Below are positions 24,729-54,700 of a stretch of DNA of 64,000 nt, piece by piece. The notes beneath the pieces were generated by a model that was not told where the DNA came from, made no database searches, and worked only from the letters and a program-made list of their open reading frames with translations. Every line of letters starts with the position of its first letter. Position 1 is the first letter of the stretch. The translations under genes and the position numbers were made by a program. Source of the DNA: Pseudomonadota bacterium (lineage in GTDB: Bacteria > Pseudomonadota > Gammaproteobacteria > Pseudomonadales > Cellvibrionaceae); the NCBI GenBank assembly GCA_040386215.1, contig JAZKFX010000039.1:66708-130707 (forward strand), given 5' to 3'.

Positions 24729-26021
24729 TCAGGGTATATGCTTAATGATTAGTGGTCCTATTATTTTTGTTAACCAAACCGGCATTAACTTCCATACATA
24801 AATAAACATTTTAAATTTCGGATTATCTGGATTGAGCTCAGGTTTCTGCTCACCCTCAGCTAGGACATAATACCAATAGTGTTGATAAGGTATCGCGCCC
24901 CACTGTTTTTTAAATTTATAAGTCCCCGCCCCCATTGTCGAACGACCAAAATCAAAAAACTTATAGCCTTCTTTGATCGCATAAGAAAGTATGCAGCGAT
25001 ACATCCACATATTAGCGTTTTTAACATTGGCACTTTGAATCGTAGAGGCCCACGGAATCTCAAGCATTAAATCGTTGCCCACCAGGAAACCAGCGGACAC
25101 GGGCTTTTTATCCATATATACAATTAAGATGGCAGATTTTATTTCAGGTGCCGATAAAATATTGAAAAACCAATCCTTACTATAAACTGGCGTACCAAGA
25201 TCACGCATATTCCGTGAAAAAACCTGGTAGAAATCGTTTAATAAATCCAATTTGCCGGTCTTGCACGTTGGCTTGTATTCTTCCGCCTTTTTATACTGTG
25301 CGCGCAATTTTGTGCCCAATTGCTTATCAAGAATTTCGTCTGTTTTAGGCAATTCCAAGACCATCGATACTTTTTTATCGAGCGCGTTTTCTGCTAACCC
25401 TGCCTGCATAGTTCTAATTTCTATGTGTGACAGCTTGTGTTCGGTGCAGATAGATTTGGATTTTTCTAAAAGCGCCACAGCAATATCGAAATAAAGCGAT
25501 ATTACTCCACCATAATTTAAAAAAGGAATTGAAACGGCGAAACTGCCAAATAGCTTACTAGAAAAAAAAGTTAGTGGAAGCCCACCTAAAATCTCTCTAT
25601 TTTCGTCAACTGCTACCAACACTATACTGTCATGACCAAATGATTTTTTTATTACACTAAACCAAGCGCTGTAATGATAAGTTGTAGCGTGCGACTTCAG
25701 AAATTCATCCCAGCGATTGAATGCATTATCCGTTATGAGTTCAAAAGCAAATGGCTTATCCCAATTACTATCTATAGCAATGCTCGTAAATGGAGACGTT
25801 TTTAATTCGGGTTGTGTTGCGGTTGCTGGGGCAGAAATAGCAATAATTTTTATTTGCGCTTCTATTTTTTTGATCCGCTCTGAAACGTTTTGCATGGCAG
25901 CTAAAAGTGATGGGTACTCGGCAGCGGTTTTGTCCATGTGCTTAAACTTACTGGCGACCTCTCCTTTAAGAGACTTTTCAGTTTTTAATTGTTTTAAAAG
26001 CGATGCAACATCTGAATTCAT
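24729..26021 (-). CDS. FemAB-like GNAT protein (XrtA-locus type) with N-terminal coiled-coil extension
   Basis: SIPFLNYGG, KLRAQYKKA, FYQVFSRNMRDLGTPVY, FDFGRST, TYKFKKQWGA, NPDNPKF. Confidence 0.88.
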   Translation of the reverse strand: MNSDVASLLKQLKTEKSLKGEVASKFKHMDKTAAEYPSLLAAMQNVSERIKKIEAQIKIIAISAPATATQPELKTSPFTSIAIDSNWDKPFAFELITDNAFNRWDEFLKSHATTYHYSAWFSVIKKSFGHDSIVLVAVDENREILGGLPLTFFSSKLFGSFAVSIPFLNYGGVISLYFDIAVALLEKSKSICTEHKLSHIEIRTMQAGLAENALDKKVSMVLELPKTDEILDKQLGTKLRAQYKKAEEYKPTCKTGKLDLLNDFYQVFSRNMRDLGTPVYSKDWFFNILSAPEIKSAILIVYMDKKPVSAGFLVGNDLMLEIPWASTIQSANVKNANMWMYRCILSYAIKEGYKFFDFGRSTMGAGTYKFKKQWGAIPYQHYWYYVLAEGEQKPELNPDNPKFKMFIYVWKLMPVWLTKIIGPLIIKHIP

Positions 26022-26094
26022 AAGAGTGATTTTATAAGCGATTATTTAATAACACTAAGTGCACATCAATTGGATTGAAAATGAAGACACACCC

Positions 26095-27135
26095 TTAAGT
26101 GAGCTTGCTTCTAATAACTTCAAACCAGGATGAGTAGCGCGCAAACTGTGCCAATGTATTAGGAAAGGTATGACGCGTAATGGAATATAACGTTTGCTTA
26201 ATGGATGCCAGGGTATTATTGCCTGGGTTTGCACTGACAGCTGCAATATAACCAAGCTCGCGAACTAATTCAGAGTGAACGCTTGAAAAATCTTTATTAG
26301 TGCCTGAGGGGAAGCAAAAAACTTGTGATGGCGAACTTAACTCAGTCTCAAGCCTATTTTTAGCGTGAATTAATTCTTCCCTTACCATGTCCAATGTCAG
26401 GGAACTAAACACCCGATGTGTACATGCATGTGAACCAACAGTTAAACCGAGACTTTCATAATGGCGTAATCTTTCCCAACTTGTAGACTTATAAGGTTCA
26501 GGCGGTGCGAGTGGAGTAGTCACCGCCAGTTCCTTTGCAACAACTGCCATAAAGTCGTTAAGCTCCTGGTTTGGAAGATATTTAGCGTATTTTACCAAGG
26601 CCCTTCGCGTTAATATTTTATTTTCTATTGAGCTGAAATTAAGCGGAAATTGAACGCCTTTAAATGATAGATAGTCTGCACAGCAGGAAGTGTTATTAAC
26701 CATATATGCAATTTTGGAGTCCCAGGGCCAATCAATCCCATCAACAAAATTAGTCAAAACGAAGATTGTTGGCTTGGCATCGTATTTTAAAAGAATAGGG
26801 ACGAGCTCTTCCACTTGATCGTTAAAGCCATCATCGATAGTAAAGCATAGCGTTGGCCTACTGGGAACTTGTCCATTAATAGCACGACTGACAATTTCAT
26901 CGAGGGAAGCAAAATGATAATTTTGCTTTTTAGCGTAGATAAGGCATTGCTCTAATAGCTTGGAAGAAAGGCCATGATGTAAACCATCGTTAGTGGCGGG
27001 CCTATGAATCATGTAGATCGTGACGTAGTGGCCTAAAAGCTTATTAATGCAATTATTGACTACGTAAAACCCGAGCAATCCTAATAAAAATTTATCCACT
27101 TGAGCCATCCACATGTAATTATAAATTAAAGCCAA
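26095..27135 (-). CDS. Polysaccharide deacetylase (CE4/NodB)
   Basis: YMIHR, FTIDDG, GSHACTH, FCFPSG. Confidence 0.85.
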   Translation of the reverse strand: MALIYNYMWMAQVDKFLLGLLGFYVVNNCINKLLGHYVTIYMIHRPATNDGLHHGLSSKLLEQCLIYAKKQNYHFASLDEIVSRAINGQVPSRPTLCFTIDDGFNDQVEELVPILLKYDAKPTIFVLTNFVDGIDWPWDSKIAYMVNNTSCCADYLSFKGVQFPLNFSSIENKILTRRALVKYAKYLPNQELNDFMAVVAKELAVTTPLAPPEPYKSTSWERLRHYESLGLTVGSHACTHRVFSSLTLDMVREELIHAKNRLETELSSPSQVFCFPSGTNKDFSSVHSELVRELGYIAAVSANPGNNTLASIKQTLYSITRHTFPNTLAQFARYSSWFEVIRSKLT

Positions 27136-28151
27136 CCAGCCAATCGAGCACCAAATAATTGACGACTGTGACTGATTTCTTCATGAACGCCAATACGGGT
27201 TAACTCATAATTAGTGCGAGAGTTTGCGTTAACTATGCCTTTTTGAGTTGTGACCGCGGCGAGATAGTTATCTTTAACAAGCTCTAGCGCTCTCGGACAG
27301 TAGTCACCGTTTGGAAAACAAAATAAGTCTACTTTTGATGATAGCTGAGTTTCGATAATTTTTTTGCTCGCGATTATTTCATGCACTAATTCTTCTTCAC
27401 TCAACGCAACCGTAAGTCGTTTGTGATTGCATGTATGCGAGCCGATGGTTATCAAGCCTGACTGTTGCATATTCATCAATTGTTCCCAGCTCATCAACGC
27501 ATTGGGCATTGCTACATTGAGTAACGAGCGCCATTGAATATCATACAACGCTGTAAAAATTTCACTATCAGAGAACTGTTTTAATTGAGAAATGTACGCC
27601 GCAACATATTCTCTATCAATTGATTTTAGCGGTTTAGGCAAGATTTGCGATAATTTGGTAAATAATGGATGTTTTTGCATTTCGCTTAAAGCAGATGGGT
27701 TACCCATTAACAATGCCATAATAATATTCGGCCAAAACTGAAAATTTGTTCCTATCTTTTCTGCTACCGCAAATACCGTTACGGGAATTTTTTCTGCTTG
27801 CATAACGGGAAAGGCGTGGTCGTAATTGTCTGCCCAACCATCATCAAAAGTAATAACGCAGGCTTTGCGCGGCAAGGGCAAACTCTGTTGTTTTAGATTA
27901 ATCCACTCCGGCAATGAAATAACATCAAAATGCCGCTTGACTTCACTCATGTGCATGGCAAATGTTTCGGGAGTGACTACCATACCTGGCTCTTCAAGCT
28001 CAAAGCGGCTATCGTTTTTTGGCAGTACCCGGTGATACATCAGTACCCACAACTTTGGCGAAGAAGCCGATAACCTATGCGCACCCAATCGATTCGCAAA
28101 AGGAATTATAGTGGAGTGAAGCAATTTTTTAAGCGCAGGTTGCATAATCAT
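27126..28151 (-). CDS. Polysaccharide deacetylase (CE4/NodB)
   Basis: LMYHRV, ITFDDGWADNY, GSHTCNH, FCFPNGD. Confidence 0.88.
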   Translation of the reverse strand: MIMQPALKKLLHSTIIPFANRLGAHRLSASSPKLWVLMYHRVLPKNDSRFELEEPGMVVTPETFAMHMSEVKRHFDVISLPEWINLKQQSLPLPRKACVITFDDGWADNYDHAFPVMQAEKIPVTVFAVAEKIGTNFQFWPNIIMALLMGNPSALSEMQKHPLFTKLSQILPKPLKSIDREYVAAYISQLKQFSDSEIFTALYDIQWRSLLNVAMPNALMSWEQLMNMQQSGLITIGSHTCNHKRLTVALSEEELVHEIIASKKIIETQLSSKVDLFCFPNGDYCPRALELVKDNYLAAVTTQKGIVNANSRTNYELTRIGVHEEISHSRQLFGARLAGWL

Positions 28152-29320
28152 TTCTTTCCTAAAATTTGACGTATATAGACCTTTAGCTCGTAAAGTGCTG
28201 GCCGGAAATCATTTACACGATTAATTTCATGTTTGGTTTTGAATCCAGGAGTTAAAAATTCAATGATGCGCCGCAGTTTTTGCCAACCAGAGTTGGTAGA
28301 TTTTAAATACAAATACAGGCTATCCACATCACCCAACACCCAGCGTAAGCGCTGCCCAATGGTATAACTTTTTGGAATAGGCAACCCAAGCGCAAGCTCA
28401 TTACTAATCATCAACGCAGGAAAATTAATGCCTGCATCTATGGCGAGCTGTAGCGAGCCCCAAAAACGCGTATTAACTTCCATTAAGTAAGCTATCCCGT
28501 CTGGCGCAATACGAAACTCCACCATTGCAACACCATGCCAATTGGCTGCCGCTAATAACTTTTCTGCATACAACTTAAGAGTTGGGTCGACCTTGGCACT
28601 TTCGCTTAACACGCTCACTCCACCTTGTGGAGGCTTTTCACGTAATCGCCGGTGAGCAAAAAAAGCAGTGGGTTGGCCATGATGATACAAACAAAAAATT
28701 CCCGCCCCATTTCCGGGAATGAACTCTTGAATCATAAATGGATACTCCTGCAGGTATATCTCTGACCTCAGCACCTTTTCCAAATCGGCAGGAGAGTGAA
28801 TGATTTTAACGCATGTAGCGATCCACCCGGAGGGCGTAAATATTTTTGAAAGGCAGGGCTTAATCACACAGGGATAATTTAATGCTACTTCTGCGAGATT
28901 CGCTGAAGATGCCAGCAGCCGAGTCGCAGGTATTGGTATACCAAGAGCCTGTGCCAGCGCCATTAGGTTACCTTTGTCGGCTAGCTGTAAGACATTTTCG
29001 TAGGAAGCAAAGGGTAAGCGTACCTTAGGCAGACGCGCCATATTCATTAGCAGTAATTGACTAGTCACTTCAGTTACAGGGACAATCAACGCAAAATTAT
29101 GATGTTGATTAAGATTTTCTAACCAGTTTATATAGTCCTCAGGTGCACTAATGGGGCTAGGGCTGGTAAAAAATTGCTGCGAGAAACTGGAGCAACCTGC
29201 TAAAGCTTGGGTTGCCGCCTCAGCAGTCATGACCTCTAACTGCGGTAATCTACCTAGAGACCGCGTAACAGCAAGAGCGCTACGTTGCGCGGCGTCCAAC
29301 ACTAAAATAAGTTGTGTCAT
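28148..29320 (-). CDS. ATP-grasp carboxylate-amine ligase
   Basis: ALAVTRSLG, DKGNL, VIKP, IQEFIPG, FAHRRLREKPPQGGVS, MVEFR, LMEVNTRFWGSL. Confidence 0.88.
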   Translation of the reverse strand: MTQLILVLDAAQRSALAVTRSLGRLPQLEVMTAEAATQALAGCSSFSQQFFTSPSPISAPEDYINWLENLNQHHNFALIVPVTEVTSQLLLMNMARLPKVRLPFASYENVLQLADKGNLMALAQALGIPIPATRLLASSANLAEVALNYPCVIKPCLSKIFTPSGWIATCVKIIHSPADLEKVLRSEIYLQEYPFMIQEFIPGNGAGIFCLYHHGQPTAFFAHRRLREKPPQGGVSVLSESAKVDPTLKLYAEKLLAAANWHGVAMVEFRIAPDGIAYLMEVNTRFWGSLQLAIDAGINFPALMISNELALGLPIPKSYTIGQRLRWVLGDVDSLYLYLKSTNSGWQKLRRIIEFLTPGFKTKHEINRVNDFRPALYELKVYIRQILGKK

Positions 29321-29553
29321 TTTTCTGCCAATTTAATCCAGGCGATTGCAATACAATACAACTACATGGCATTCATTAAAGATATATTTGTTACACATGA
29401 TAACGGATTGAGTTGCATTATAGTATTTTGACGAGATCTTTAAATTCTCATAAAGTAAAGATTAATTCTTGCTATGCTAACGACCTAAATACGAGCATTG
29501 AATGTAGCATGAGGATTGATAACAAAGGACTATTTTAGAGTAGTGGGTGTGCA

Positions 29554-29575
29554 TAGCCGGCACCATCATTTCTAG
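29554..29575 (+). promoter_or_regulatory. sigma54-like promoter motif, copy 2
   Basis: TAGCCGGCACCATCATTTCTAG, 19 of 22 positions identical to 16087-16108, about 60 bp before the GT4 start. Confidence 0.55.
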
Positions 29576-29635
29576 TTAACTTATCAACTCTCTGTAAAAG
29601 ATAATGCGGACTACAGCTGACTGGAAAGAAAACGG

Positions 29636-30760
29636 ATGACTGAAAAACCAAAAACTATTCTTCACGCCATAGATACCACAGGTCCAGGTGGAGCAGAAAC
29701 GGTCTTTTTAGATTTGGTGGAAAAGTTAACGCTGGATGGATATGAGAACTATGCCATTATAAAAGGCCCGGGCTGGGTTGAGAATCAACTAAAACAGCGC
29801 GGAGTCAAGTACTTTATTGTAAAACCCAGCGGCTTCTTATCGATTAAATATTACCTTGAATTGGGAAAGCTAATTCGTCAAAACAATACACGATTAGTAC
29901 ACGCGCACTTGTTAGGATCAACCTTAACCTACTCCATTCTTAGCATCTTCTTAGGCTTACCTGTCCTTGCAACACTTCATGGCCGTGTAGATGTTAATCC
30001 CAATGAGCGATTTGTTGCGATCAAAAATAGAATTATGAAGTTCGGAGTAAATACATTAATCGCTGTAAGTAAAGATTTGGCTGGTTACATCTCCGAACGA
30101 GAGCTATTTAACAAAAATGACATAAAGGTTATTTATAACGGAATAGATGAATTACGTTACGGAAAGCAGGAAACCAGAGAGCTTCGCCTTTCATTGGGAA
30201 TTCCTGATGCCGCAATTCTCATAGGCAGCCTAGGCAATGTACGTCCTGCAAAAAGTTATGATGTTCTCGTAACAGCTGCGGCAAATTTGATTAATGAAAA
30301 AAAACAAAATGTACACTTCATCATAGCCGGCCATAAAAAGATGGAGTTAATGAATCCCCTTGATGAACTTATCGCGCAATACGGCATTTCCGACCGAGTG
30401 CATTTTATTGGGTTTCATGAAGATACCGCTCGCTTTTTAGGTCAATTAGATTTTTTTGCTCTTTCATCTTCATCAGAAGGATTTTCCATCGCCACTATCG
30501 AGGCAATGGCTACTGGCCTTCCGGTGGTAGTCACTCGTTGTGGCGGGCCACAAGAAATACTAGAGCATGGGGTTACCGGCTTTTTAGTAAACACCAATAA
30601 CCCGCAAGAGCTCGCAAATGGCCTGCTGCATATGATGCAACACAAGGTCACCGCAGAAAAAATGGCAACGGCAGGAAAAACACATGTTAAAAATGTATTT
30701 TCTTTTGCTTCCATGCTAGAGGCTTATCGACATGAATACAAAAAACACTTACCCCAGTGA
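29636..30760 (+). CDS. Glycosyltransferase family 4
   Basis: GPGGAE, IYNGID, LSSSSEGFSIATIEAMATGLPVV. Confidence 0.92.
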   Translation: MTEKPKTILHAIDTTGPGGAETVFLDLVEKLTLDGYENYAIIKGPGWVENQLKQRGVKYFIVKPSGFLSIKYYLELGKLIRQNNTRLVHAHLLGSTLTYSILSIFLGLPVLATLHGRVDVNPNERFVAIKNRIMKFGVNTLIAVSKDLAGYISERELFNKNDIKVIYNGIDELRYGKQETRELRLSLGIPDAAILIGSLGNVRPAKSYDVLVTAAANLINEKKQNVHFIIAGHKKMELMNPLDELIAQYGISDRVHFIGFHEDTARFLGQLDFFALSSSSEGFSIATIEAMATGLPVVVTRCGGPQEILEHGVTGFLVNTNNPQELANGLLHMMQHKVTAEKMATAGKTHVKNVFSFASMLEAYRHEYKKHLPQ

Positions 30761-30802
30761 AATCTAGAATGAATACTCTAAACATTCAGGTGCAACAATA
30801 GA

Positions 30803-31363
30803 ATGACGCTAAAACAATACATTGAAAATCGATTTGGTTCCAAGAGAGGACTGTTCAGGCTATGCCTTACTGAAATAATCCGCTGCTTAGGGTTTTATAA
30901 GCAATATGGCCAAATTGATTTTTTAAAAGTAAACCGGTTAATTTTTATATGTCATGGAAACATTTGTCGCAGCCCTCTTGGTGAGGCAGTAGCTAAAAAT
31001 CGAGGGGCTCTGGCCGAATCTTATGGCTTGGATACTCGAGGTGGCGATAATGCAGATCCTCGCGCAATCGCATTTGCTATTCAACATAAACTAGTACTAA
31101 ACAATCATAAGACACGTCACATCAAAGAATATTTACCAGAACCTGGTGATTTATTGATTGGCATGGAGCCGAAACATACCACTGCGCTAAAAGCGCTTTA
31201 CGGTAATGATGTGCAAATTACTCTTGCAGGTTTATGGCTACAAAAACCTGTAGCTTATTTACATGATCCTTACAGTGCAAACATTTCATTTTTTAATCGT
31301 TGTGAATTATTGGTTGCATGCGCGGCAAAACAATTGGCATCGAAGATTAAATCAACCCAATGA
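30803..31363 (+). CDS. Low-molecular-weight protein tyrosine phosphatase family protein
   Basis: FICHGNICRSP (C-x5-R loop) and DPY general-acid motif; about 40-aa N-terminal extension. Confidence 0.85.
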   Translation: MTLKQYIENRFGSKRGLFRLCLTEIIRCLGFYKQYGQIDFLKVNRLIFICHGNICRSPLGEAVAKNRGALAESYGLDTRGGDNADPRAIAFAIQHKLVLNNHKTRHIKEYLPEPGDLLIGMEPKHTTALKALYGNDVQITLAGLWLQKPVAYLHDPYSANISFFNRCELLVACAAKQLASKIKSTQ

Positions 31364-32628
31364 CAACAAAAATCTATACCACTGAAGATTTCTACGCTTT
31401 TAAAGTAGGCGCTATGTGGCAATACTTTAAAAGCCAACACTTTTCTTTTTGGATGATTTGCTGTTATTTGGTGTTTGAGTTTGTCAGGCCACAAGCGCTA
31501 ATTCCCAGAATTGACTTTCTTCCTTGGGCTCAGTTATTCCTCGTTGGGTCACTTGCAGGAGTGGTGATGGATCCTACGGTAAAGTGGGTGTCTAGTCCCG
31601 CCAACAAATGGATCATTTTATTTCTAATAACAATTTGCATATCAATATCCACAGCGCAGTATCCTGAGGTTTCGAAGAAACATTTCATGGATTTTTTTAG
31701 CTGGTTCGTAATTTATTTTATAGTTATCAATATAATTAATACGAAAGAGCGATTTTATATTTTTGTTATTATTTTTCTTTTTGCTGCGGGAAAAATTGCA
31801 TTTGGGACATCCAAAAGCTGGGCGTTTCGCGGTTTTTCATTCACTAATTGGGGCTTGATGGGCCCTAAAGGCTACTTTCAAAACTCTGGTGAGCTTGCCA
31901 TACTTATGCTCATGCTATTTCCCTTAGCCTATTATTTATATCAGGCACAAAAGAACACTATCAAATCTTGGGAAAAATGGACGCTCATGCTGTTTTGGAT
32001 TTGCCCGGTGTTTACAATCCTGGGAGCAAGCAGCCGCGGAGCCCAAATAGCTCTTGTTTGCCAGTTATTAGTAATGTTTAGAAAAAGTCTTGTCAAACCA
32101 AAGTTACTCATTGGAGTAGTAATTTTAAGTATGAGTTTATTTTATCTGCTGCCAGCAGAGCAAAAGGAGCGGTTCTCACAAACAGGAGGTGATAAAACAT
32201 CGCAGCAGAGAATTTTATACTGGGGGCATGGCTGGGATATGATAAAAGAGTACCCATTAACAGGTGTTGGGTTTTTTAACTTTATTCCATATTACGAACA
32301 AAATTTTTCGCACGATATGCTATATGAATTTGCTGAACTACCGCACAACATTTTTATACAAGTTGGTACTGATGCGGGAATAGTTGCTGTTTTTTTCTTT
32401 ATTCTCATTATCCTGTACTGTCTGTCGACCTCGCTAAAAATTGCAAACCGGCAGAATACTGAACCTACCTTAAAAGCAATAGCCGTAGGTTGTGGATATG
32501 GTGTTTTTGGGTTTCTCGTGGCGGGGCAGTTTGTTACAGTAAGCTACTATCCTTTTTTATGGATACACTTGGCATTTATAGCATCACTCGAAAATATTAT
32601 AAAGTTTTCAAAGCCTCTCGCCAAATAG
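31360..32628 (+). CDS. O-antigen ligase/Wzy-like membrane protein
   Basis: About 11-12 TM helices; NSGE, SSRGA, R..YW..GW.MI...PLTGVG, PHNIFIQVG.D.G. Confidence 0.85.
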   Translation: MTTKIYTTEDFYAFKVGAMWQYFKSQHFSFWMICCYLVFEFVRPQALIPRIDFLPWAQLFLVGSLAGVVMDPTVKWVSSPANKWIILFLITICISISTAQYPEVSKKHFMDFFSWFVIYFIVINIINTKERFYIFVIIFLFAAGKIAFGTSKSWAFRGFSFTNWGLMGPKGYFQNSGELAILMLMLFPLAYYLYQAQKNTIKSWEKWTLMLFWICPVFTILGASSRGAQIALVCQLLVMFRKSLVKPKLLIGVVILSMSLFYLLPAEQKERFSQTGGDKTSQQRILYWGHGWDMIKEYPLTGVGFFNFIPYYEQNFSHDMLYEFAELPHNIFIQVGTDAGIVAVFFFILIILYCLSTSLKIANRQNTEPTLKAIAVGCGYGVFGFLVAGQFVTVSYYPFLWIHLAFIASLENIIKFSKPLAK

Positions 32629-32947
32629 TTTTGCTATGTATAAATCAAGGTAAATTATTTTTATTTAGTAAAGAGCTTGGCCAAAATTACCACTTCAAAA
32701 ATATTTACGGCTTAGCTGTGAAGACAAACAATTTAATATACACTTACTTAACAGGAATACTGCAGCAAGCCAAAGCATGATTACATCTCCGAAGTTTGGG
32801 TCACATTAATCGTTAACTTCGTGGATTTTTTTGAACTGGCTATTTTCATACTTTACAATAATTCAGTTAACGCAAATATCCTGGTTTTGTTGGGCGCATT
32901 CGCACCTTAAACTCAAAGTAATTATAGTTAGATTCTCCGGAAATGTT

Positions 32948-33868: not shown

Positions 33869-34160
33869 ATACTGAATTAGCGTTTGCTATTTTAGTCTGC
33901 GAATGAATATGAGGTATTTTTCTGTCGATTATTTTCATTAATAATCAAATATTCGTGCTTCGGTGTTAATTATGACTGACGCAATATAAACAAAATTTTA
34001 GGCATTATTTTTATGCATTAATAATTAGGTTCAATTATCGGACGTCTGAGCAGGAAAAATTACGCTACCACAGCAACGCAACTGTTTATACCTAGCATGA
34101 TCTGGAGGAAAAATTCTTTTTCAGCTATTCCCCCTGTTTGACAAAATATGGAACCATTAA

Positions 34161-35213
34161 ATGTCTTCTGCAAAAAAGAAATTTGATTCACTTCAAGTGT
34201 TTCGCGGATTAGCGGCGCTAGGGGTGGTAATTCGCCACACAGCAATAAGTACCGATAGCCATATTGCCAGCATCCCGGCTTGGCTAGATGGAATATTTAA
34301 AAATGGCTTCCTTGGCGTAGATTTTTTCTTTGTTTTATCTGGCTTCATTATTATGAGCAGCCACTTTAATGATGAGAAGTCAGTAGCTGCGTGGAAAACT
34401 TACGGATTTAAGCGGTTCGTACGCATATTTCCGCCTTACTGGCCCATCGCTATTGCGCTAATGCTTAGCTATATATTCCTGCCAAGTTTGGGTCAGGAGA
34501 CACGACATTATAGTGTATTGAGTTCGTTATTATTGTTGCCTGATTATCAACCCCCCGCGCTAATAGTGGCTTGGACATTGATTCATGAGGTGCTGTTTTA
34601 TTTGATTTTTTGTCTGTTTTTTATCTCAAATCGTGTCTTTTTGATTTTTTTGGCATGTTGGGTTTTTGCTATTGGCGTGACTGCATCGCATTTTAAAGCA
34701 GTGGCTTATTCTCCCTTTTTTACGGTTTTGTTGCACCCCATTAATTTGGAATTTGTGTTTGGAATGTGCACTGCATACCTAGCGACAAAAACTTCAAAAC
34801 ATCTCGGCATTCCTTTAATATTTCTCGGTTTTTCCACATTTGCTCTCCTATTACTGTGGCCGTTTGCCTACGAGTGCCGCTTCTTATTTGGCTTGTCTTT
34901 TTCTGCTTTGGTGCTTGGCTCGGTGTTGCTGGAACACGGCAAAGCCTTGCCTATCCCTCGCTGGATGGTGCTTATAGGTGATGCAAGCTATTCAATTTAC
35001 CTCATTCACAATCCACTTAACTCAGTTACCGGTAGGCTTATAGGACGATTTCAGGGTTTCGCAACTTGGGGAGTGGGGATGCTCGTAGGTGTTATTTCCA
35101 GCATAATTGCCGGGGTGATATACCACTTTATTATCGAAAAGCCGCTGATTAGATTGTTTCGCAGGGGAAAAGAGGCACTCCTTAAGCGCCCCGTAAAAGC
35201 GGATTTAATATAG
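34161..35213 (+). CDS. Acyltransferase family 3 (OafA-like O-acyltransferase)
   Basis: LQVFRGLAA, GVDFFFVLSGFI, RFVRIFPPYW, AWTLIHE..FY, GDASYSIYL.H. Confidence 0.92.
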   Translation: MSSAKKKFDSLQVFRGLAALGVVIRHTAISTDSHIASIPAWLDGIFKNGFLGVDFFFVLSGFIIMSSHFNDEKSVAAWKTYGFKRFVRIFPPYWPIAIALMLSYIFLPSLGQETRHYSVLSSLLLLPDYQPPALIVAWTLIHEVLFYLIFCLFFISNRVFLIFLACWVFAIGVTASHFKAVAYSPFFTVLLHPINLEFVFGMCTAYLATKTSKHLGIPLIFLGFSTFALLLLWPFAYECRFLFGLSFSALVLGSVLLEHGKALPIPRWMVLIGDASYSIYLIHNPLNSVTGRLIGRFQGFATWGVGMLVGVISSIIAGVIYHFIIEKPLIRLFRRGKEALLKRPVKADLI

Positions 35214-35402: not shown

Positions 35403-36338
35403 TTATTTTAATATCATGGACGGATTGCCAGGAGGCTCAGGATTGGCAGGGGCATTATTATTCTGACTAAAACCACCTGTTGTGATTTTAATGTCGTCAT
35501 ACCACAACTCAAAAGGAACGCTTCCACCTTGTGACCAATCAAAGATTGAAATGTTTTGAATAGGCTTGTTCAGATAGTGGCGATTAAATATGTTTTTCAC
35601 ATCTGCGTAAACTTTGCCGTCAATTTCAACATAAACTGCACCATCGGGAACTTCGTTCTCTTTTGTCGTACCGGAGTTAAACTTTAGATGAAATCTGAAA
35701 TGATGCCACTCACTGCCCCAAGCTGATGACGGCCAAAATTTCCCTTGCGGAGTATTGATTATAGCTACACCTTGAGATCTACCGATCCAATCACGGTTCT
35801 CCCCATTAAATTTAACGACATTCTGCGCGTCATTTCCTACTGTGGTGCCATCTCCAAAACCGAATCCCCACATGCCAGCGTAATCAACGCCGGTATAATC
35901 CAGGAGAAAAGTCGTATTGGCATAGTGCTCACCTGCACCCGATACTCTCTGTCCAAACACTTTGAGAAACTTTACACCATATTTTGCATTTGGCATCTTT
36001 GCATAAAATTCAATGTATATATCTCGCAAATTAAGCGCGGCGATATCAAGTCCGCCCCAAATGTAAACACCCCCGGTGCCCGGCTTAGGATACACGCCTC
36101 TTATACTTCCTTTACTGCCATTGTGGTTCAAACTTGTATCAGCCGAAATGCTTACTTGTCCACCCTGCTGAGCACCAAAGCCCCAACCGTTGGTAGAAGG
36201 AAGAACACCCGACTCAAAATCCGCCTGCCCCAGAACCACAACTTCTGCTCTTGAGCTACCAACCGCGAACATACAAAACACTGCCATCAATAAGGAATAG
36301 AAGCAATGGGACAATTTGGATAATTTGGACAACTTCAT
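35403..36338 (-). CDS. Secreted hypothetical protein, predicted beta-jelly-roll (polysaccharide-lyase/LamG-like) fold, Pro-rich tail
   Basis: GAGGTG RBS, signal peptide ending SRA, YIEFYAK, WHHFRFHLKFN, DG.VYVEIDGK, LWYDDIKIT, tail PANPEPPGNP. The fold is inferred. Confidence 0.6.
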   Translation of the reverse strand: MKLSKLSKLSHCFYSLLMAVFCMFAVGSSRAEVVVLGQADFESGVLPSTNGWGFGAQQGGQVSISADTSLNHNGSKGSIRGVYPKPGTGGVYIWGGLDIAALNLRDIYIEFYAKMPNAKYGVKFLKVFGQRVSGAGEHYANTTFLLDYTGVDYAGMWGFGFGDGTTVGNDAQNVVKFNGENRDWIGRSQGVAIINTPQGKFWPSSAWGSEWHHFRFHLKFNSGTTKENEVPDGAVYVEIDGKVYADVKNIFNRHYLNKPIQNISIFDWSQGGSVPFELWYDDIKITTGGFSQNNNAPANPEPPGNPSMILK

Positions 36339-37178
36339 AATCACCTCGACACATAAATTTACAATTGCATTTAGCTTGTTCAATATAGTCAAACAACACT
36401 CCGACCGCTCGTTCAAATTTTCTAACTGTGAATAGAGTCACTAAAGTGACTAATTTTTTTCCATTCGGCATAGCCAACATTTTAAATATTATGAAAACAT
36501 AAAAAATGTAATTTAATTAGCATAAGATCTTATAGCAAGCTTGAGTAGATTGTGACATTTACGCTTTCGACATCGAATATGCATATGATATGAATGTGGA
36601 ATTACTTTTCTACGCCCTCACAAACCGAAATATTTTCCCCAAACTCCATGGATCTAATCATCACATTTATCATAATGCGTTAAATCGGACGCCTGGATGC
36701 TATCAAAAAAATATGGCTTAAGGGAAACGACAATGCTTGTAGCAGTCTTCATAGCACACACAAAACCAAAATATTCGCTCCAACAGACAATGAAGCTGAA
36801 TTCATTAATTATATCACGCGATATTCTGCTTATTGGCCATATCTCAAAATCAATTAGATTGATGCGAAGTATGAACGGCTCGCTTTGATCTATTTGGCCT
36901 TAAGAGCCACCAAACCTAGCGAGCCTGAAGTGCGCTGCAATGCGGAGGCTGTGTTTAGTATTGCCCGGCATGTAGAGTGTTCAGTCCGATCTATTTTGAA
37001 TCCAGAGAAATAATTTTTTATAAAAATCAGGCTGTTTTGATCGCACTTAGATATCATCGCTATCATTCATATTTTGGCAAGCAAATTTTTAGATTTCGCA
37101 AAGTATATTCGAATAGCACCCGCTCTGAATAACGCGAAAGTGTATACTTAAAACGGCTTTTTTAATTGAGAATATATT

Positions 37179-39041
37179 ATGTATGAGTTTGAAGTGGATC
37201 ATGGGTCGCAAAAGGAATCCGATACACCCCAAGAAATCCTAGAGTCCTTTACACAATTTCCCTCTGATACAGAGGCATTATCAATACTACCTTGGGAAGA
37301 ACATTGTACCGAATGCGCAATGCCAATGTGTTACAGCACTTGCAACCTCTACGAAGCGAGAAAAGACGGAAAATGTAGGCGTTTTGTAGGCGGAATAGTA
37401 TCGGTATCGGGCGCAAAAAATCCTCAAGGCTACCTTACGCGTGTTTCATTTAAACGTTGGGGTCAATTGATGGCGTATGCCAATTTGCATCCTGTACCCA
37501 TCCAACGCTTTAAATGGGTTGAAACAGCAGTACGGGTAATAGACGAAATTGCAGCACATATTCCAGATCGCCACCTTGCAATTCGCGGAAGGCGCGGCTT
37601 TAGTTCGCGCATGCAAAGAAGATTGAAACAGTTTGTTGCGGGAAGCGGAGTTTTTGCAACAAGTCATGATGCACCGCCAACATATTTACTGATTGAAGTG
37701 TTCAACCCAAATGATTTTGTTGTTAAGGTAACATTAACCCTGAATTCCTCTGATGCAAATGCATATAATGCGGGCTACCAGCAGCTATTGGCGATTGAAA
37801 AAGGATTCAATCAATTTAAGATAGCGCTTGCAGATATTTCTCAACGCGTAAACTTGCAGGAAAAATTCGGAATTTCACTCAATCCCAACATTCTTGATGA
37901 AAAAGATGAGGGATTAACGCTGTATTTTGGCATGCTAACTTTTGCATGGGAAAAACCCTCGGCGAGTAATGTGCAACCGACAACGGAAAGTACAGGCAAG
38001 CCGCATGTCAAAGTGCTGGTTTGGGACCTTGACAATACACTTTGGGACGGCGTCTTATTAGAGGTGGGTCTTGATAAGCTCAAATTGAAGCCTGGCATCA
38101 TTGACGTTATCAAAGAATTAGATAAAAGAGGAATTTTAAACAGTGTTGCAAGTAAAAATAATTACGACGACGCAATACTGGCTTTACAACATTTTGGACT
38201 ATCAGAATATATGCTGTACCCACAAATTGGTTGGGAGCAAAAAGGCTTGTATGTCAGAGAACTCATTAATCGATTCAATGTAGGTCAAAATACATTTGCG
38301 TTCATAGACGATCAGCCCTTTGAACGAGATGAAGTATTGTCCTTGAACCCTCAGGTGCGCGCCTATGATGCGACCGAATATAATTCATTGCTTAGCTTAC
38401 CGGACTTTAATCCACCATTAAGCCTGGAGTCGCATTTGCGACGTGAATTTTACAGCTTGGATATTCAGCGAAAAGAAGCAATGACTTCGTTTGATGGCGA
38501 GTATTTTTCTTTTTTAAAAGACTGCCAGATTAAGCTCAATATCTATACGCCAACAATCGAAAATATTGACCGCATAATGGAGTTGGTTCAACGCACCAAC
38601 CAACTGAATTTTTCTGGAAACAAGTACACACCGGAAGAAATTATCGCGATTCTTGAGCAAGACAAATACGAGGCTTTTTGTTTAGACTGTGAAGACAAGT
38701 ATGGTCAATATGGCACTGTCGGTTTTGCCATAGTAAACAAGGAAAAATTTCAACTTATTGATTTGATGTTTAGCTGTCGCGTACAATCGAAAAGAGTGGA
38801 GCATGCCTTTCTTGCATTCCTGTTAAATCATTATAAGTCTTCAGCTGCAAATGAATTTTCAGCGGTATACATTAAAACTTCTCGAAATATGAAAGCAGGT
38901 TTAGTGTTTGATGACATGAAATTTATTGAACAAAAATTAGATTCAGAAACATCTAGCGAAAGCATATACAAAATCGATCTTACTGCAGAAGTCCCTAATG
39001 ACAACATCATCACAGTTTTATGGAATGGTAAAATATGTTGA
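37179..39041 (+). CDS. FkbH-like HAD-IIIC phosphatase/glyceryl transferase with atypical Cys-rich N-terminal domain
   Basis: VLVWDLDNTLWDG, SVASKN, FIDDQPFER, LVQRTNQLN, DKYGQYG, FSCRV. Confidence 0.88.
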   Translation: MYEFEVDHGSQKESDTPQEILESFTQFPSDTEALSILPWEEHCTECAMPMCYSTCNLYEARKDGKCRRFVGGIVSVSGAKNPQGYLTRVSFKRWGQLMAYANLHPVPIQRFKWVETAVRVIDEIAAHIPDRHLAIRGRRGFSSRMQRRLKQFVAGSGVFATSHDAPPTYLLIEVFNPNDFVVKVTLTLNSSDANAYNAGYQQLLAIEKGFNQFKIALADISQRVNLQEKFGISLNPNILDEKDEGLTLYFGMLTFAWEKPSASNVQPTTESTGKPHVKVLVWDLDNTLWDGVLLEVGLDKLKLKPGIIDVIKELDKRGILNSVASKNNYDDAILALQHFGLSEYMLYPQIGWEQKGLYVRELINRFNVGQNTFAFIDDQPFERDEVLSLNPQVRAYDATEYNSLLSLPDFNPPLSLESHLRREFYSLDIQRKEAMTSFDGEYFSFLKDCQIKLNIYTPTIENIDRIMELVQRTNQLNFSGNKYTPEEIIAILEQDKYEAFCLDCEDKYGQYGTVGFAIVNKEKFQLIDLMFSCRVQSKRVEHAFLAFLLNHYKSSAANEFSAVYIKTSRNMKAGLVFDDMKFIEQKLDSETSSESIYKIDLTAEVPNDNIITVLWNGKIC

Positions 39042-39808
39042 ATTTAAAAACTGTAGTTCGCGAAGCAAAAACACATTTTTATCAATCTTTTGCAAATCAT
39101 CGTGTTCCCATTAAGCTCAACCGAGCCATTATTAGTTTTACATTTGATGATGTGCCGAGAAGCGCATTTACAAACGCAGTGCCCCTACTCGATAAATACG
39201 GAATCAAGGCTACTTTTTATGTGTCAGCTGGATTAAGCAATCCTGACAACATCGCTAAGGAAAATGCATTAGATGAATACTTGCGTCCCGATGATTTGGT
39301 TAACTTAAATCAAAACAACCATCATTTAGCCTGCCATACCTACAGCCATTATCGGCTTACTGATGGCAATGCAAGCAAATTGTACCAAGACACACAAAGA
39401 AATATAGACAGCTTGCAGGTTATCTTAGGCGATGTTCCCATCGAGCATTTTTCTTATCCCTTTGGGCAAGTCAGTTTCGAGGAAAAACGCTTGCTCGCTC
39501 AACAGTATAAAACGATGCGTAGCTCTCGCCCCGGCTTAAATGCTGGTGCGACAGATCTTTATTTGCTGCGAGCGACGAGCCTTTACAGCTCAAGCTTTGA
39601 CAAACAAGCAATTGAAAATATTATTAAAAAAGCCGTTGATCTTGGAGGCTGGCTCATCTTATATACTCACGGAGTTGAGACGAATCCAGATGCCTATGGC
39701 TGCAGTCCCGAACAGTTTGAGTGGGTGCTGAAACAATGCGTGGCTTCGGGAGCGGATATTCAGCCGATAGATAAAGCTTATCAACAGATAATTAACCAGC
39801 CGGCCTAA
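39035..39808 (+). CDS. Polysaccharide deacetylase family protein
   Basis: SFTFDD, ATFYVS, CHTYSH, FSYPFG, WLILYTH; start overlaps the FkbH stop. Confidence 0.85.
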   Translation: MLNLKTVVREAKTHFYQSFANHRVPIKLNRAIISFTFDDVPRSAFTNAVPLLDKYGIKATFYVSAGLSNPDNIAKENALDEYLRPDDLVNLNQNNHHLACHTYSHYRLTDGNASKLYQDTQRNIDSLQVILGDVPIEHFSYPFGQVSFEEKRLLAQQYKTMRSSRPGLNAGATDLYLLRATSLYSSSFDKQAIENIIKKAVDLGGWLILYTHGVETNPDAYGCSPEQFEWVLKQCVASGADIQPIDKAYQQIINQPA

Positions 39809-54692: not shown

Positions 54693-54700
54693 TGAGATGA

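What the first reader, a model, noticed from the sequence alone, without database searches (positions are those of the whole stretch)
24729..39808. Candidate assembly line for aminoacylated or acylated exopolysaccharide
Seen: one operon of ATP-grasp ligase, deacetylase, deacetylase and FemAB-like protein (29320 to 24729); a second of FkbH and deacetylase; plus an AT3 acyltransferase, a DegT-type aminotransferase and uronic-acid-generating enzymes (TviB and epimerase). Known: Fem proteins transfer amino acids from aminoacyl-tRNA to amines, ATP-grasp ligases form amides, and FkbH makes glyceryl thioesters from 1,3-bisphosphoglycerate. Inference: three different amide- or ester-forming chemistries decorate one amino/uronic-sugar polymer, giving a peptide-decorated or cross-linked surface matrix coupled to exosortase. 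The XrtA-type EPS locus is known from comparative genomics, but I know of no biochemical description of this enzyme combination. This is my best candidate for an undescribed system in the window.
Basis: partly seen in the sequence, partly recalled or inferred. Interest (0 to 1): 0.72.

Follow-up and report, generated by a model that had tools for sequence, protein, structure and literature searches.

The report
Amino-acid sugar-tailoring genes in exosortase slime locus
A Cellvibrio-like bacterium's exosortase-linked slime-polysaccharide locus holds a conserved four-gene operon that most likely strips acetyl groups from amino sugars and puts amino acids on in their place. This is an untested relative of the Wbp/Vim pathway that builds the protein-anchoring sugar in Porphyromonas.

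Summary
They lie inside a canonical XrtA/PEP-CTERM exopolysaccharide locus (window 12600-56866).

The operon ATP-grasp, CE4a, CE4b, FemAB-like (29320-24729, minus strand) is translationally coupled. It keeps the same order in 11 of 11 same-genus loci and recurs, shuffled, in eight other families of the class.

The FemAB-like protein passes the curated TIGR03019 cut-off. Its model is a tandem GNAT whose 26 best PDB matches are all aminoacyl-tRNA-dependent transferases. It also has an N-terminal helical hairpin that weakly resembles the seryl-tRNA synthetase arm. Both deacetylases keep their metal-binding residues, and all four proteins look cytoplasmic.

The FkbH-like/deacetylase pair and the AT3 gene are strain-variable add-ons (1 of 24 congeners). 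The FkbH-like/deacetylase pair is itself a widespread two-gene module with no carrier protein.

The best reading is that the N-acetyl group is removed and the amine is re-acylated with amino acids on the lipid-linked repeat unit.

The Wbp/Vim pathway (VimE deacetylase plus VimA, which matches TIGR03019) makes an N-seryl or N-glycyl uronic sugar that anchors type IX secretion cargo. Its authors already speculated about exosortase. I rate this a new variant of a known kind, of moderate interest.

The parts
28148..29320 (-). ATP-grasp carboxylate-amine ligase, first gene of the conserved tailoring operon
   Evidence: PF15632 at 46 bits; NF005315/PRK12767-type matches. The model has pLDDT 88.8; its best folds are 2pn1 and the L-amino-acid ligases 3vot/4wd3. 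More than 5,900 homologues were found, named carboxylate--amine ligase in Cellvibrio and Marinimicrobium.
27126..28151 (-). CE4a, a cytoplasmic PgaB/NodB-like de-N-acetylase with an insert of about 110 aa
   Evidence: PF01522 at 81 bits in two stretches. PDB sequence hit to the PNAG deacetylase 4u10, E = 1.9e-13. TFDD and HxxxH are conserved in orthologues. No TM segment or signal peptide.
26095..27135 (-). CE4b, a paralogue of CE4a (28% identity)
   Evidence: PF01522 at 46 bits. BLASTP against CE4a gives E = 4e-18. T(I/L)DD and HxxxH are conserved in orthologues. No TM segment or signal peptide.
24729..26021 (-). FemAB/VimA-like tandem-GNAT transferase (TIGR03019) with an N-terminal helical hairpin
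   Evidence: TIGR03019 at 295.8 bits, above the 260.35 cut-off. The model has pLDDT 89.7. Foldseek top hits are FemX 1xf8/1ne9/4ii9 (E about 1e-16, TMt 0.68), then Sbb17, FemA and MprF. The F370-K371-K372 motif is invariant.
25836..26021 (-). N-terminal two-helix hairpin of the FemAB-like protein (residues 1-62), a possible tRNA-binding arm
   Evidence: Helices 2-27 and 36-62 in the model. The arm is conserved in orthologues. Longer orthologues hit Pfam Seryl_tRNA_N at E = 4e-6 to 1.5e-5, just under the cut-off. A profile search of PDB ranks the SerRS arm first, but at E = 0.056. Reciprocal tests were negative.
29636..30760 (+). GT4 glycosyltransferase (stp2-like), divergent from the tailoring operon, part of the conserved core
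   Evidence: PF00534 at 126 bits. TIGR03088 at 179 bits, below the 409 cut-off. Syntenic in the genus.
30803..31363 (+). Low-molecular-weight phosphotyrosine phosphatase (Wzb-like)
   Evidence: PF01451 at 65 bits. Syntenic.
31360..32628 (+). Wzy_C / O-antigen-ligase-like membrane protein (polymerase or ligase)
   Evidence: PF04932 at 67 bits. TIGR03097 at 111 bits, below the cut-off. Six TM-like segments.
34161..35213 (+). AT3 membrane acyltransferase (probably O-acetylation), in the variable region
   Evidence: PF01757 at 93 bits. In congeners only distant AT3 genes at other positions (26-28% identity).
37179..39041 (+). FkbH-like HAD-IIIC enzyme with an invariant five-Cys/His N-terminal domain and no carrier protein, in the variable region
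   Evidence: TIGR01686 at 216 bits, above the cut-off. Invariant WEEHCTECAxPxCxxxC..GKCRRF, WDLDNT and SCR motifs. Found in only 1 of 24 congeners.
39035..39808 (+). HfsH-like CE4 deacetylase, translationally coupled to the FkbH-like gene
   Evidence: PF01522 at 76 bits. NF050820 HfsH at 152 bits, below the cut-off. The same family lies next to the FkbH-like gene in 50 of 71 loci; YdjC takes its place in 7.
48367..49509 (+). Membrane GT2 of the PgaC/NodC type, which travels with the ATP-grasp and DegT-like genes in distant loci
   Evidence: Weak TIGR03937/TIGR04242 matches. Four TM-like segments. Adjacent to the ATP-grasp and DegT-like genes in L030/L031.
49488..50642 (+). Divergent DegT-family PLP enzyme with the lysine motif kept (FSFGRGKPLS)
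   Evidence: PF01041 at 94 bits. Sequence. Lies between the ATP-grasp/CE4 and FemAB genes in L025, L026 and L028.
12600..15890 (-). TviB-type UDP-GlcNAc 6-dehydrogenase, NAD-dependent epimerase and the canonical XrtA deacetylase (TIGR03006)
   Evidence: NF011729 at 598 bits against a cut-off of 592. TIGR03006 at 392 bits against a cut-off of 276.
16126..24632 (+). XrtA-type assembly and export core: priming transferase, OPX export protein, chain-length determinant, tyrosine kinase, unknown 428-aa protein, PrsT
   Evidence: TIGR03013, TIGR03027 and TIGR03007 are above their cut-offs. TIGR03018 and TIGR02917 are just below.
42289..44094 (-). PglK/MsbA-type ABC transporter, a candidate flippase
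   Evidence: NF050066 PglK at 276 bits and TIGR02203 at 244 bits, both below their cut-offs.
50659..56866 (-). Exosortase (XrtA-like), Ser-rich lipoprotein, PrsR, PrsK
   Evidence: TIGR02602 at 115 bits, above 105.55. The XrtA-specific model gives 144 bits, below 208. PrsR at 702 bits and PrsK at 562 bits are above their cut-offs. The genome has 22 PEP-CTERM ORFs.

Best explanation
The region is the sugar-tailoring part of an exosortase A (XrtA/PEP-CTERM) type, Wzy-dependent exopolysaccharide locus of a Cellvibrio-like gammaproteobacterium.

Its conserved core operon works on the cytoplasmic face, probably on the lipid-linked repeat unit, as an 'N-acyl exchange' module:
1. Two paralogous CE4 deacetylases remove N-acetyl groups. 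The likely substrates are GlcNAc-type and N-acetyl-hexosaminuronic residues supplied by the TviB-type dehydrogenase and the epimerase.
2. The freed amines are then re-acylated in two ways.
   - A VimA/FemX-like tandem-GNAT enzyme takes an amino acid from aminoacyl-tRNA.
   - An ATP-grasp carboxylate-amine ligase either adds a second amino-acid or carboxylic-acid unit or amidates the uronate.

The FkbH-like/deacetylase pair and the AT3 gene are strain-specific extras. They probably add a further N-acyl group (perhaps glyceroyl) and O-acetyl groups.

Shown here: gene content, synteny, folds, catalytic motifs, cytoplasmic location and the core-versus-variable split.

Inferred: the substrates, the amino acid used, the order of steps and the polymer structure.
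For: - Locus identity. TIGR03013, TIGR03027, TIGR03007, TIGR03006, TIGR03019, PrsR and PrsK all score above their curated cut-offs. The genome has 22 PEP-CTERM ORFs.
- Operon. The genes overlap. The order is identical in 11 of 11 congeneric loci. The same families cluster in shuffled order in loci from eight other families of the class. ATP-grasp orthologues co-occur with TIGR03019 (Fisher p = 4.9e-5).
- FemAB-like protein. The model has pLDDT 89.7, and its 26 best PDB matches are all aminoacyl-tRNA-dependent transferases: FemX, Sbb17/Sba18, FemA and MprF. An FKK motif is invariant and the N-terminal hairpin is conserved.
- Deacetylases. The D-D and HxxxH metal-binding residues are kept in both paralogues across orthologues.
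- Location. None of the tailoring enzymes has a signal peptide or TM segment.
- Precedents. VimE plus VimA (which matches TIGR03019) install Ser or Gly on a de-N-acetylated uronic sugar (PMC7468200). HfsH is paired with the FemX-like HfsK in the Caulobacter holdfast (PMC5362036). An ATP-grasp enzyme amidates glucuronate in the C. jejuni capsule (PMC11800379).
Against: - No chemistry was measured.
- The ATP-grasp fold is generic: PurK, biotin carboxylase and L-amino-acid ligases score alike. Its substrates are therefore open.
- The window's FemAB-like protein scores near the bottom of TIGR03019 (297 bits against about 450-540 bits for canonical members).
- Tandem GNATs that use acyl-CoA also match its fold, though less well.
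- The SerRS-arm resemblance failed the reciprocal tests.
- The CE4 motif-3 arginine is not evident; the sequence there reads FCFPNG.
- WbpB- and WbpD-type enzymes are not in the window, so the sugar acted on is not known.
Confidence: 0.6

Rival explanations
1. The ATP-grasp enzyme works independently of the FemAB-like enzyme. It amidates the C6 carboxylate of the uronic sugar with a small amine made by the co-travelling DegT-like PLP enzyme. This would mirror the C. jejuni capsule, where Cj1438C ligates serinol phosphate or ethanolamine phosphate made by PLP enzymes. The ATP-grasp enzyme would then take the place of the AsnB-type amidotransferase of canonical XrtA loci.
For: - The DegT-like gene sits directly between or beside the ATP-grasp and FemAB genes in L025, L026 and L028, and beside the ATP-grasp gene in L030/L031.
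- TIGR03108 is over its cut-off in 9 of 11 canonical-FemAB genomes but in only 1 of 12 ATP-grasp-type genomes. It is absent from this genome.
- There is a precedent for ATP-grasp amidation of glucuronate (PMC11800379).
- A uronate-forming TviB-type gene is in the locus.
Against: - Several ATP-grasp-type loci still carry divergent AsnB-like genes, so the replacement is not clean.
- The ATP-grasp gene is translationally coupled to a deacetylase, which points to an amine acceptor on the sugar more than to a carboxylate.
- Cj1438C is described as a TupA-like ATP-grasp. No similarity between it and this protein was tested.
Confidence: 0.3
2. The FemAB-like protein is an acyl-CoA-dependent N-acyltransferase that simply re-acetylates or acylates the sugar amines. 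No tRNA is involved.
For: - Pfam places it in Acetyltransf_6, a GNAT family.
- Tandem GNATs that use acyl-CoA (2wpw, VipF, N-myristoyltransferases) appear in the fold search at E = 1e-9 to 1e-7.
- VimA was long annotated as an acetyl-CoA transferase, and the donor used by HfsK is unknown.
Against: - The 26 best structural matches are all aminoacyl-tRNA users, with higher TM-scores (0.68 against about 0.57).
- Swapping VimA between species changes Ser to Gly in the product.
- A conserved helical hairpin with sub-threshold SerRS-arm similarity is present.
Confidence: 0.2
3. The operon modifies peptidoglycan or lipopolysaccharide and not the exopolysaccharide. Its place in the EPS locus would be incidental.
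For: - Fem enzymes and D-aspartate-type ATP-grasp ligases are classically peptidoglycan enzymes (established knowledge).
- CE4 enzymes also de-acetylate peptidoglycan (weak NCBIfam matches).
Against: - The operon sits in a fixed position between PrsT and the GT4/phosphatase/Wzy-like genes in all 11 congeners.
- It clusters with EPS genes in distant families.
- The curated family TIGR03019 is defined by its association with XrtA.
- The genes are absent from 7 of 24 congeners, which does not fit a house-keeping wall function.
Confidence: 0.05

Closest known systems
Wbp/Vim linking-sugar pathway of Porphyromonas gingivalis and Tannerella forsythia (WbpA/B/E/D, VimE, VimA, WbpS; Veith et al. 2020, PMC7468200)
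   Same: - A CE4 deacetylase (VimE) exposes a sugar amine on an N-acetyl-uronic sugar.
- A protein that matches TIGR03019 (VimA) adds Ser or Gly.
- A UDP-GlcNAc 6-dehydrogenase and a DegT-type enzyme belong to the pathway.
- The product is the amine to which a sortase-like enzyme joins protein C-termini.
- The authors themselves point to PEP-CTERM/exosortase loci.
   Different: - This locus has two extra PgaB-like CE4 paralogues with an insert, plus an ATP-grasp ligase.
- The transferase has an N-terminal helical hairpin.
- There are no WbpB, WbpD or WbpS genes in the window.
- The partner is an exosortase in a Wzy-type EPS locus, not the type IX system with A-LPS.
- No chemistry is known for it.
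Canonical XrtA/PEP-CTERM EPS loci (Haft et al. 2006, PMC1569441; NCBIfam TIGR03006 + TIGR03019 + TIGR03108)
   Same: It has the same regulators (PrsK/PrsR/PrsT), priming transferase, export proteins, exosortase, TIGR03006 deacetylase and a TIGR03019 member.
   Different: - In canonical loci TIGR03006 and FemAB are adjacent and an AsnB-type amidotransferase lies 5-6 kb away.
- Here FemAB is divergent (297 bits) and carries an N-terminal arm.
- It sits in an operon with an ATP-grasp ligase and two other CE4 genes.
- The AsnB-type gene is missing.
- This architecture was seen in 9 of 400 sampled genomes of the class.
FemX/FemA/FemB and MurM peptidoglycan cross-bridge transferases
   Same: Predicted tandem-GNAT fold. 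FemX of Weissella is the best structural match (E about 1e-16, TMt 0.68). Like FemA, it has a helical coiled-coil appendage.
   Different: - Sequence identity is about 13%, and no sequence-level match to the PDB Fem proteins was found.
- The hairpin is N-terminal, not inserted.
- The presumed acceptor is a sugar amine, not a lysine side chain.
Caulobacter holdfast HfsH (CE4) and HfsK (FemX-like tandem GNAT) (PMC5362036)
   Same: A cytoplasmic deacetylase is paired with a Fem-like transferase in an adhesive polysaccharide. The authors propose acylation of the amines exposed by HfsH. The CE4 beside the FkbH-like gene is HfsH-like.
   Different: The substrate and donor of HfsK are unknown. The holdfast system has no ATP-grasp enzyme and no exosortase.
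Nod factor synthesis (NodC synthase, NodB deacetylase, NodA N-acyltransferase)
   Same: The same logic of 'deacetylate, then N-acylate the freed amine' applies, carried out in the cytoplasm. A NodC/PgaC-like membrane GT2 travels with the module. The comparison rests on established knowledge of Nod enzymes.
   Different: The acyl donor and the transferase fold differ, and the product is a polymer, not a signal oligosaccharide.
FkbH/OzmB-type glyceryl-ACP synthases (TIGR01686)
   Same: The FkbH domain scores above its curated cut-off. The HAD DxDxT motif and an invariant Cys in an SCR motif are present.
   Different: - No carrier protein lies within 4 kb in any of 71 loci.
- It has an extra N-terminal domain of about 275 aa with five invariant Cys and one His.
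- Its constant partner is a sugar deacetylase, CE4 or YdjC.
Cj1438C ATP-grasp amidoligase of the Campylobacter jejuni capsule (PMC11800379)
   Same: An ATP-grasp enzyme forms an amide on a capsule uronic acid, using an amine made by a PLP enzyme.
   Different: It belongs to a different ATP-grasp subfamily (TupA-like) and is fused to a GT2. No homology to this protein was tested here.

Membership tests
XrtA/PEP-CTERM exopolysaccharide system | Exosortase gene in the locus | tested here: met
   TIGR02602 at 115 bits, above 105.55; PF09721 at 146 bits. The XrtA-specific model TIGR03109 gives only 144 bits, below 208.
XrtA/PEP-CTERM exopolysaccharide system | PEP-CTERM proteins encoded in the genome | tested here: met
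   22 ORFs match PF07589 over the cut-off, and none of the 14 control genomes do.
XrtA/PEP-CTERM exopolysaccharide system | PrsK/PrsR two-component system and PrsT | tested here: met
   PrsR at 702 bits against 503. PrsK at 562 bits against 300. PrsT at 296 bits, just under 312.
XrtA/PEP-CTERM exopolysaccharide system | Associated AsnB-type amidotransferase (TIGR03108) | tested here: not met
   The best genome hit is 401 bits against a cut-off of 817, and it lies on another contig.
FemAB family XrtA-associated protein (TIGR03019) / VimA-like | Score above the curated equivalog cut-off | tested here: met
   295.8 bits against 260.35, though near the bottom of the family range.
Fem-type aminoacyl-tRNA-dependent transferases | Tandem GNAT fold | tested here: met
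   The AF2 model has pLDDT 89.7. FemX gives E about 1e-16 and TMt 0.68, and the top 26 hits are all aa-tRNA users.
Fem-type aminoacyl-tRNA-dependent transferases | Catalytic Phe-Lys pair (K305 of Weissella FemX, recalled from memory) | tested here: inconclusive
   F370-K371-K372 is invariant in 30 orthologues. No residue-level alignment to FemX could be obtained.
Fem-type aminoacyl-tRNA-dependent transferases | Use of aminoacyl-tRNA as donor | not testable with these tools
   This needs an in vitro assay. The helical hairpin gives only sub-threshold similarity to the SerRS arm.
Carbohydrate esterase family 4 (CE4a, CE4b) | Asp-His-His metal triad and catalytic Asp (motifs 1 and 2) | tested here: met
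   TFDD / T(I/L)DD and H-x-x-x-H are conserved across orthologues.
Carbohydrate esterase family 4 (CE4a, CE4b) | Motif-3 arginine (RxPxG) | tested here: inconclusive
   The corresponding stretch reads FCFPNG / FCYPSG, with no Arg at that position.
ATP-grasp carboxylate-amine ligases | ATP-grasp fold and family match | tested here: met
   PF15632 at 46 bits against 29. The fold matches 2pn1, 3vot and 4wd3 at E about 1e-17.
FkbH glyceryl-ACP synthases | FkbH domain above cut-off, with the HAD motif and a conserved Cys | tested here: met
   TIGR01686 at 216 bits against 147. WDLDNT and SCR are invariant.
FkbH glyceryl-ACP synthases | Dedicated acyl carrier protein partner | tested here: not met
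   There is no small ORF with an ACP-like GxDSL motif in the window operon or within 4 kb in 71 related loci.
Wbp/Vim pathway | WbpB oxidoreductase and WbpD N-acetyltransferase | tested here: not met
   No GFO_IDH_MocA or hexapeptide-repeat protein is among the ORFs of 12600-56866 that were scanned. The rest of the genome was not searched.
Wbp/Vim pathway | WbpA-type dehydrogenase, DegT-type enzyme, CE4 (VimE-like) and a TIGR03019 member (VimA-like) | tested here: met
   The DegT-like protein is divergent (WbpE 3nu7 at E = 1.4e-6).

The most novel reading that the evidence does not exclude
The aminoacyl (or short peptidyl) branch that the deacetylase, FemAB-like and ATP-grasp enzymes put on a sugar of the repeat unit may be the long-sought nucleophile of exosortase. 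XrtA would cleave PEP-CTERM proteins and join their new C-terminus by an amide bond to this amine, tying the proteins covalently to the exopolysaccharide. That would be the proteobacterial counterpart of sortase with the Fem-built cross-bridge, and of PorU with the Wbp/Vim linking sugar. The idea is not original to this report: Veith et al. 2020 raised it for VimA-like genes. The Cellvibrio operon would be a tractable place to test it.
Probability: 0.25. Interest if true: 0.85.

Novelty: new variant of a known kind. Interest (0 to 1): 0.5.

Why it matters
- What exosortases attach their PEP-CTERM substrates to has been open since 2006.
- The only chemically defined analogue is the Wbp/Vim linking sugar of the type IX system, and it uses the same deacetylase plus TIGR03019-type pair.
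- This locus shows a distinct, conserved architecture of that idea: an ATP-grasp ligase, two CE4 paralogues and an arm-bearing transferase, with no AsnB-type enzyme. It occurs in a cultivable, non-pathogenic genus, so gene deletions and EPS or protein mass spectrometry could test both the sugar chemistry and the anchoring hypothesis.
- Separately, the carrier-protein-less FkbH-like/deacetylase pair is a widespread two-gene module. At least 591 species genomes encode an FkbH-like relative, and a deacetylase lay beside it in about 80% of 71 loci examined. Its chemistry is unknown.

Tried and rejected
- **SerRS-arm homology of the hairpin.** hhalign against the genome's own SerRS N-terminus gave a wrong register and 10% probability. 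An HMM of the arms did not retrieve SerRS from the genome's ORFs. The window's own arm hits Seryl_tRNA_N only at E = 0.2-0.4. I keep it as a resemblance only.
- **Sequence search of PDB.** The FemAB-like protein found nothing, either alone or as a profile apart from weak coiled-coil hits.
- **ATP-grasp fold search.** It gave no specific functional neighbour.
- **Clean replacement of the AsnB-type amidotransferase by the ATP-grasp enzyme.** Only partly borne out, because divergent AsnB-like genes persist in several such loci.
- **A sigma-54-like element** (TGGTGC-N5-ATGCA at 29550-29565, minus strand) upstream of the operon is no more than chance would give.
- **Literature.** I found no paper on ATP-grasp genes in exosortase loci or on FkbH with glyceroyl sugars. 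Iyer et al. 2009 could not be read.
- **Chance adjacency.** Rejected on synteny.

Full report
**What is there**

ORF listing and family scans show that window 12600-56866 is a canonical exosortase A (XrtA/PEP-CTERM) exopolysaccharide locus. These families score above their curated NCBIfam cut-offs:
- the XrtA deacetylase TIGR03006 (12600-13502)
- a TviB-type UDP-GlcNAc 6-dehydrogenase (14577-15890)
- the priming transferase TIGR03013
- the export protein TIGR03027
- the chain-length determinant TIGR03007
- the FemAB-family protein TIGR03019 (24729-26021)
- PrsR and PrsK

These score just below their specific cut-offs: PrsT, the tyrosine kinase, the stp2-type GT4, the Wzy_C-like protein and the exosortase itself. 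The exosortase gives 144 bits against 208 for the XrtA model, but it passes the general exosortase model.

The genome encodes 22 PEP-CTERM ORFs elsewhere. Close relatives carry Cellvibrio names. The window is contig C39:66708-130707 of a 5.05-Mb draft genome.

**The observation**

- The ATP-grasp, CE4a, CE4b and FemAB-like genes overlap by 4 bp and 10 bp and are then 73 bp apart.
- The FkbH-like gene overlaps its deacetylase by 7 bp.
- The DegT-like gene, the TviB-type gene and the epimerase lie outside the stated coordinates but inside the same locus.

**Core versus variable parts**

tblastn of the window's proteins against 20-kb stretches from 11 genomes of the same genus finds the same arrangement in every one: PrsT, then FemAB, CE4b, CE4a and ATP-grasp on the opposite strand, then GT4, phosphatase and the Wzy-like gene.
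- 17 of 24 congeners have the ATP-grasp gene.
- The FkbH-like gene is found in only one congener, at 93% identity and at the same position.
- AT3 genes in congeners are different and sit elsewhere.
- GC content dips to 0.35-0.38 in the 32-34 kb and 40-46 kb stretches, as is usual for the variable part of glycan loci.

One four-gene operon is core, and the other two items are strain-level decorations.

**Wider distribution**

TIGR03019 occurs in 93 of 401 sampled genomes of the class.
- Canonical members score about 450-540 bits, with open frames of about 345-400 residues.
- The window's protein scores 297 bits.

Orthologues of the ATP-grasp protein (E < 1e-60) occur in only 9 of 400 genomes.
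- Eight of the nine also have a low-scoring TIGR03019 gene.
- Six of these, the window's own genome included, carry it on the same contig, within 0.5-16 kb (Fisher p = 4.9e-5).

In those loci the ATP-grasp, CE4a/b-type, FemAB, DegT-like, PgaC/NodC-like GT2, GT4, phosphatase and Wzy-like genes cluster in shuffled orders. Examples:
- ATP-grasp, CE4, DegT, FemAB
- ATP-grasp, DegT, FemAB, CE4
- ATP-grasp, GT2, DegT, GT4

The AsnB-type amidotransferase TIGR03108 differs between the two locus types.
- It lies 5-6 kb from FemAB in 7 of 11 canonical genomes, and 9 of the 11 have it over the cut-off.
- It is over the cut-off in only 1 of 12 ATP-grasp-type genomes and is absent from this genome.
- Several ATP-grasp-type loci nevertheless keep divergent AsnB-like genes.

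This is a distinct sub-architecture of the XrtA locus.

**The FemAB-like protein**

- An AlphaFold2 model built on 30 orthologues has mean pLDDT 89.7. It shows two long antiparallel helices (residues 2-27 and 36-62), a disordered linker and a tandem GNAT body.
- Foldseek against the PDB puts Weissella FemX first (E about 1e-16, TMt 0.68). The tRNA-dependent peptide synthases Sbb17/Sba18, FemA, S. aureus FemX and the aminoacyl-phosphatidylglycerol synthases follow. Acyl-CoA tandem GNATs come only after 26 such hits.
- The orthologue alignment shows an invariant F370-K371-K372 in TYKFKKQWG. From memory, this resembles the Phe-Lys pair of FemX. The alignment also shows a conserved, partly hydrophobic C-terminal pair of helices.

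The N-terminal hairpin is conserved in all orthologues. The evidence that it resembles the seryl-tRNA synthetase arm is mixed:
- Orthologues with a longer N-terminus (463-500 aa) hit Pfam Seryl_tRNA_N collinearly at E = 4e-6 to 1.5e-5, which is 25-27 bits against a gathering score of 28.2.
- A profile of the family ranks two seryl-tRNA synthetase arms first and third in the PDB, but only at E = 0.056 and 0.4.
- Against this, hhalign with the genome's own SerRS and a reciprocal HMM search of the genome were negative.
- The window's own shorter arm is not significant by itself.

I treat the arm as a plausible tRNA-binding element with odds of about one in two, not as shown.

**The deacetylases and the ligase**

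- CE4a and CE4b are paralogues (28% identity). They share an insert of about 110 residues between CE4 motifs 1 and 2.
- Both keep the Asp-Asp and His-x3-His residues across orthologues.
- Their closest solved relatives by sequence are PNAG deacetylases.
- Unlike those enzymes, they have no signal peptide. The ATP-grasp, FemAB-like, FkbH-like and TIGR03006 proteins also lack one, so the chemistry is cytoplasmic.
- The ATP-grasp model (pLDDT 88.8) matches an uncharacterised CPS-like protein, L-amino-acid ligases, PurK and biotin carboxylases about equally. It is an ATP-dependent carboxylate-activating ligase, and its substrates cannot be read from the fold.

**Mechanism proposed**

The simplest reading of two deacetylases plus two amide-forming enzymes, all cytoplasmic and translationally coupled, is N-acyl exchange on the lipid-linked repeat unit before a PglK-type ABC transporter (42289-44094) flips it:
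1. Acetyl groups come off one or two amino sugars.
2. An amino acid goes on from aminoacyl-tRNA, through the FemAB-like enzyme.
3. The ATP-grasp enzyme makes a second amide. It may act on the other freed amine, on the alpha-amine of the first amino acid, or on the uronate carboxylate.

The last option is a serious rival for the ATP-grasp step. The grounds are the constant company of the DegT-like PLP enzyme, the scarcity of the AsnB-type enzyme and the C. jejuni precedent.

**Comparison with what is known**

- Prompted by earlier notes of this scan, I read Veith et al. 2020 (PMC7468200).
  - VimA then adds serine or glycine. Swapping vimA between species changes the amino acid.
  - The amino group of that residue is amide-bonded to the C-terminus of type IX secretion cargo.
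  - The authors note that VimA matches TIGR03019, and they speculate that the PEP-CTERM homologues make the unknown acceptor of exosortase.
- The Caulobacter holdfast pairs the CE4 enzyme HfsH with HfsK, whose closest solved relative is FemX (PMC5362036).
- Haft et al. 2006 list deacetylases among the correlated families but do not discuss Fem proteins.

The core logic is therefore known and partly proven in another phylum. New here are the ATP-grasp plus double-CE4 plus arm-bearing transferase architecture and the lack of WbpB, WbpD and WbpS. No biochemical work on any exosortase-linked member turned up in the papers searched.

**The FkbH-like pair**

- The 620-residue protein has an FkbH domain above the cut-off.
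- It also has an N-terminal domain of about 275 residues with the invariant motif WEEHCTECAxPxCxxxC...GKCRRF.
- Full-length relatives occur in at least 591 species genomes across many phyla.
- In 71 loci with enough flank, a CE4 deacetylase of about 260 residues is a neighbour in 50, and it lies downstream in 46 of 53 copies. A YdjC-type deacetylase takes its place in 7.
- No locus has an ACP-like small ORF within 4 kb.
- In Oceanicoccus and Thiodiazotropha the pair stands alone, outside any glycan locus.

The replacement of one deacetylase fold by another says that deacetylation is the coupled activity. An inference follows, which has not been tested: the enzyme passes its acyl group (glyceryl, if it behaves like FkbH) directly to the freed sugar amine, without a carrier protein.

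**Verdict**

- Observation: confirmed.
- Classification: a new variant of a known kind.
- Interest: moderate, mainly as a tractable place to test what exosortase attaches proteins to.

Noticed in passing
window 37179-39808; loci L036-L119: The FkbH-like protein has an invariant five-Cys/His N-terminal domain. Together with a sugar deacetylase it forms a two-gene module with no carrier protein. FkbH-like relatives occur in at least 591 species genomes. In 71 loci examined, a CE4 gene was the neighbour in 50 and YdjC took its place in 7. In some genomes the pair stands alone, outside glycan loci.
   Followed up: partly
window 29550-29565 (minus strand) and about 16087-16108: TGGTGCCGGCTATGCA reads as a -24/-12-like element on the minus strand, pointing toward the ATP-grasp operon and not the plus-strand GT4 gene. 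A similar copy upstream of the TviB operon lacks the -12 GC. The pattern is no more frequent than chance (0.85 expected per window).
   Followed up: partly
window 50659-52110: The exosortase is 483 aa and has about nine TM-like segments. A C-terminal stretch of about 200 residues has no Pfam match. The protein scores below the XrtA-specific cut-off (144 against 208 bits), although the rest of the locus is XrtA-type.
   Followed up: no
window 35403-36416 (minus strand): A secreted 337-aa protein with no family match sits in the variable region. It is conserved at 62% identity in one congener's locus (L019). It may be a glycanase or lyase for the polymer.
   Followed up: no
window 39976-42239 (minus strand): Two ORFs (417 aa and 332 aa) have no match, or only a faint GT1-like match. 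They lie between the FkbH-like pair and the ABC transporter.
   Followed up: no
window 52246-53085 (minus strand): A lipoprotein between PrsR and the exosortase has Ser/Ala-rich repeats of 10 residues (SSTALSSRAA, repeated). It is the subject of another note of this scan.
   Followed up: no
window 32001-34000 and 40001-46000: GC content drops to 0.35-0.38, against 0.40-0.43 in the conserved parts of the locus. This fits horizontally exchanged glycosyltransferase and decoration genes.
   Followed up: no
G012:C148 (L002) compared with window 37179-39041: The FkbH-like gene is 93% identical between the two genomes, whereas the neighbouring core ATP-grasp gene is only 83% identical. This suggests recent exchange of the variable cassette.
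   Followed up: no
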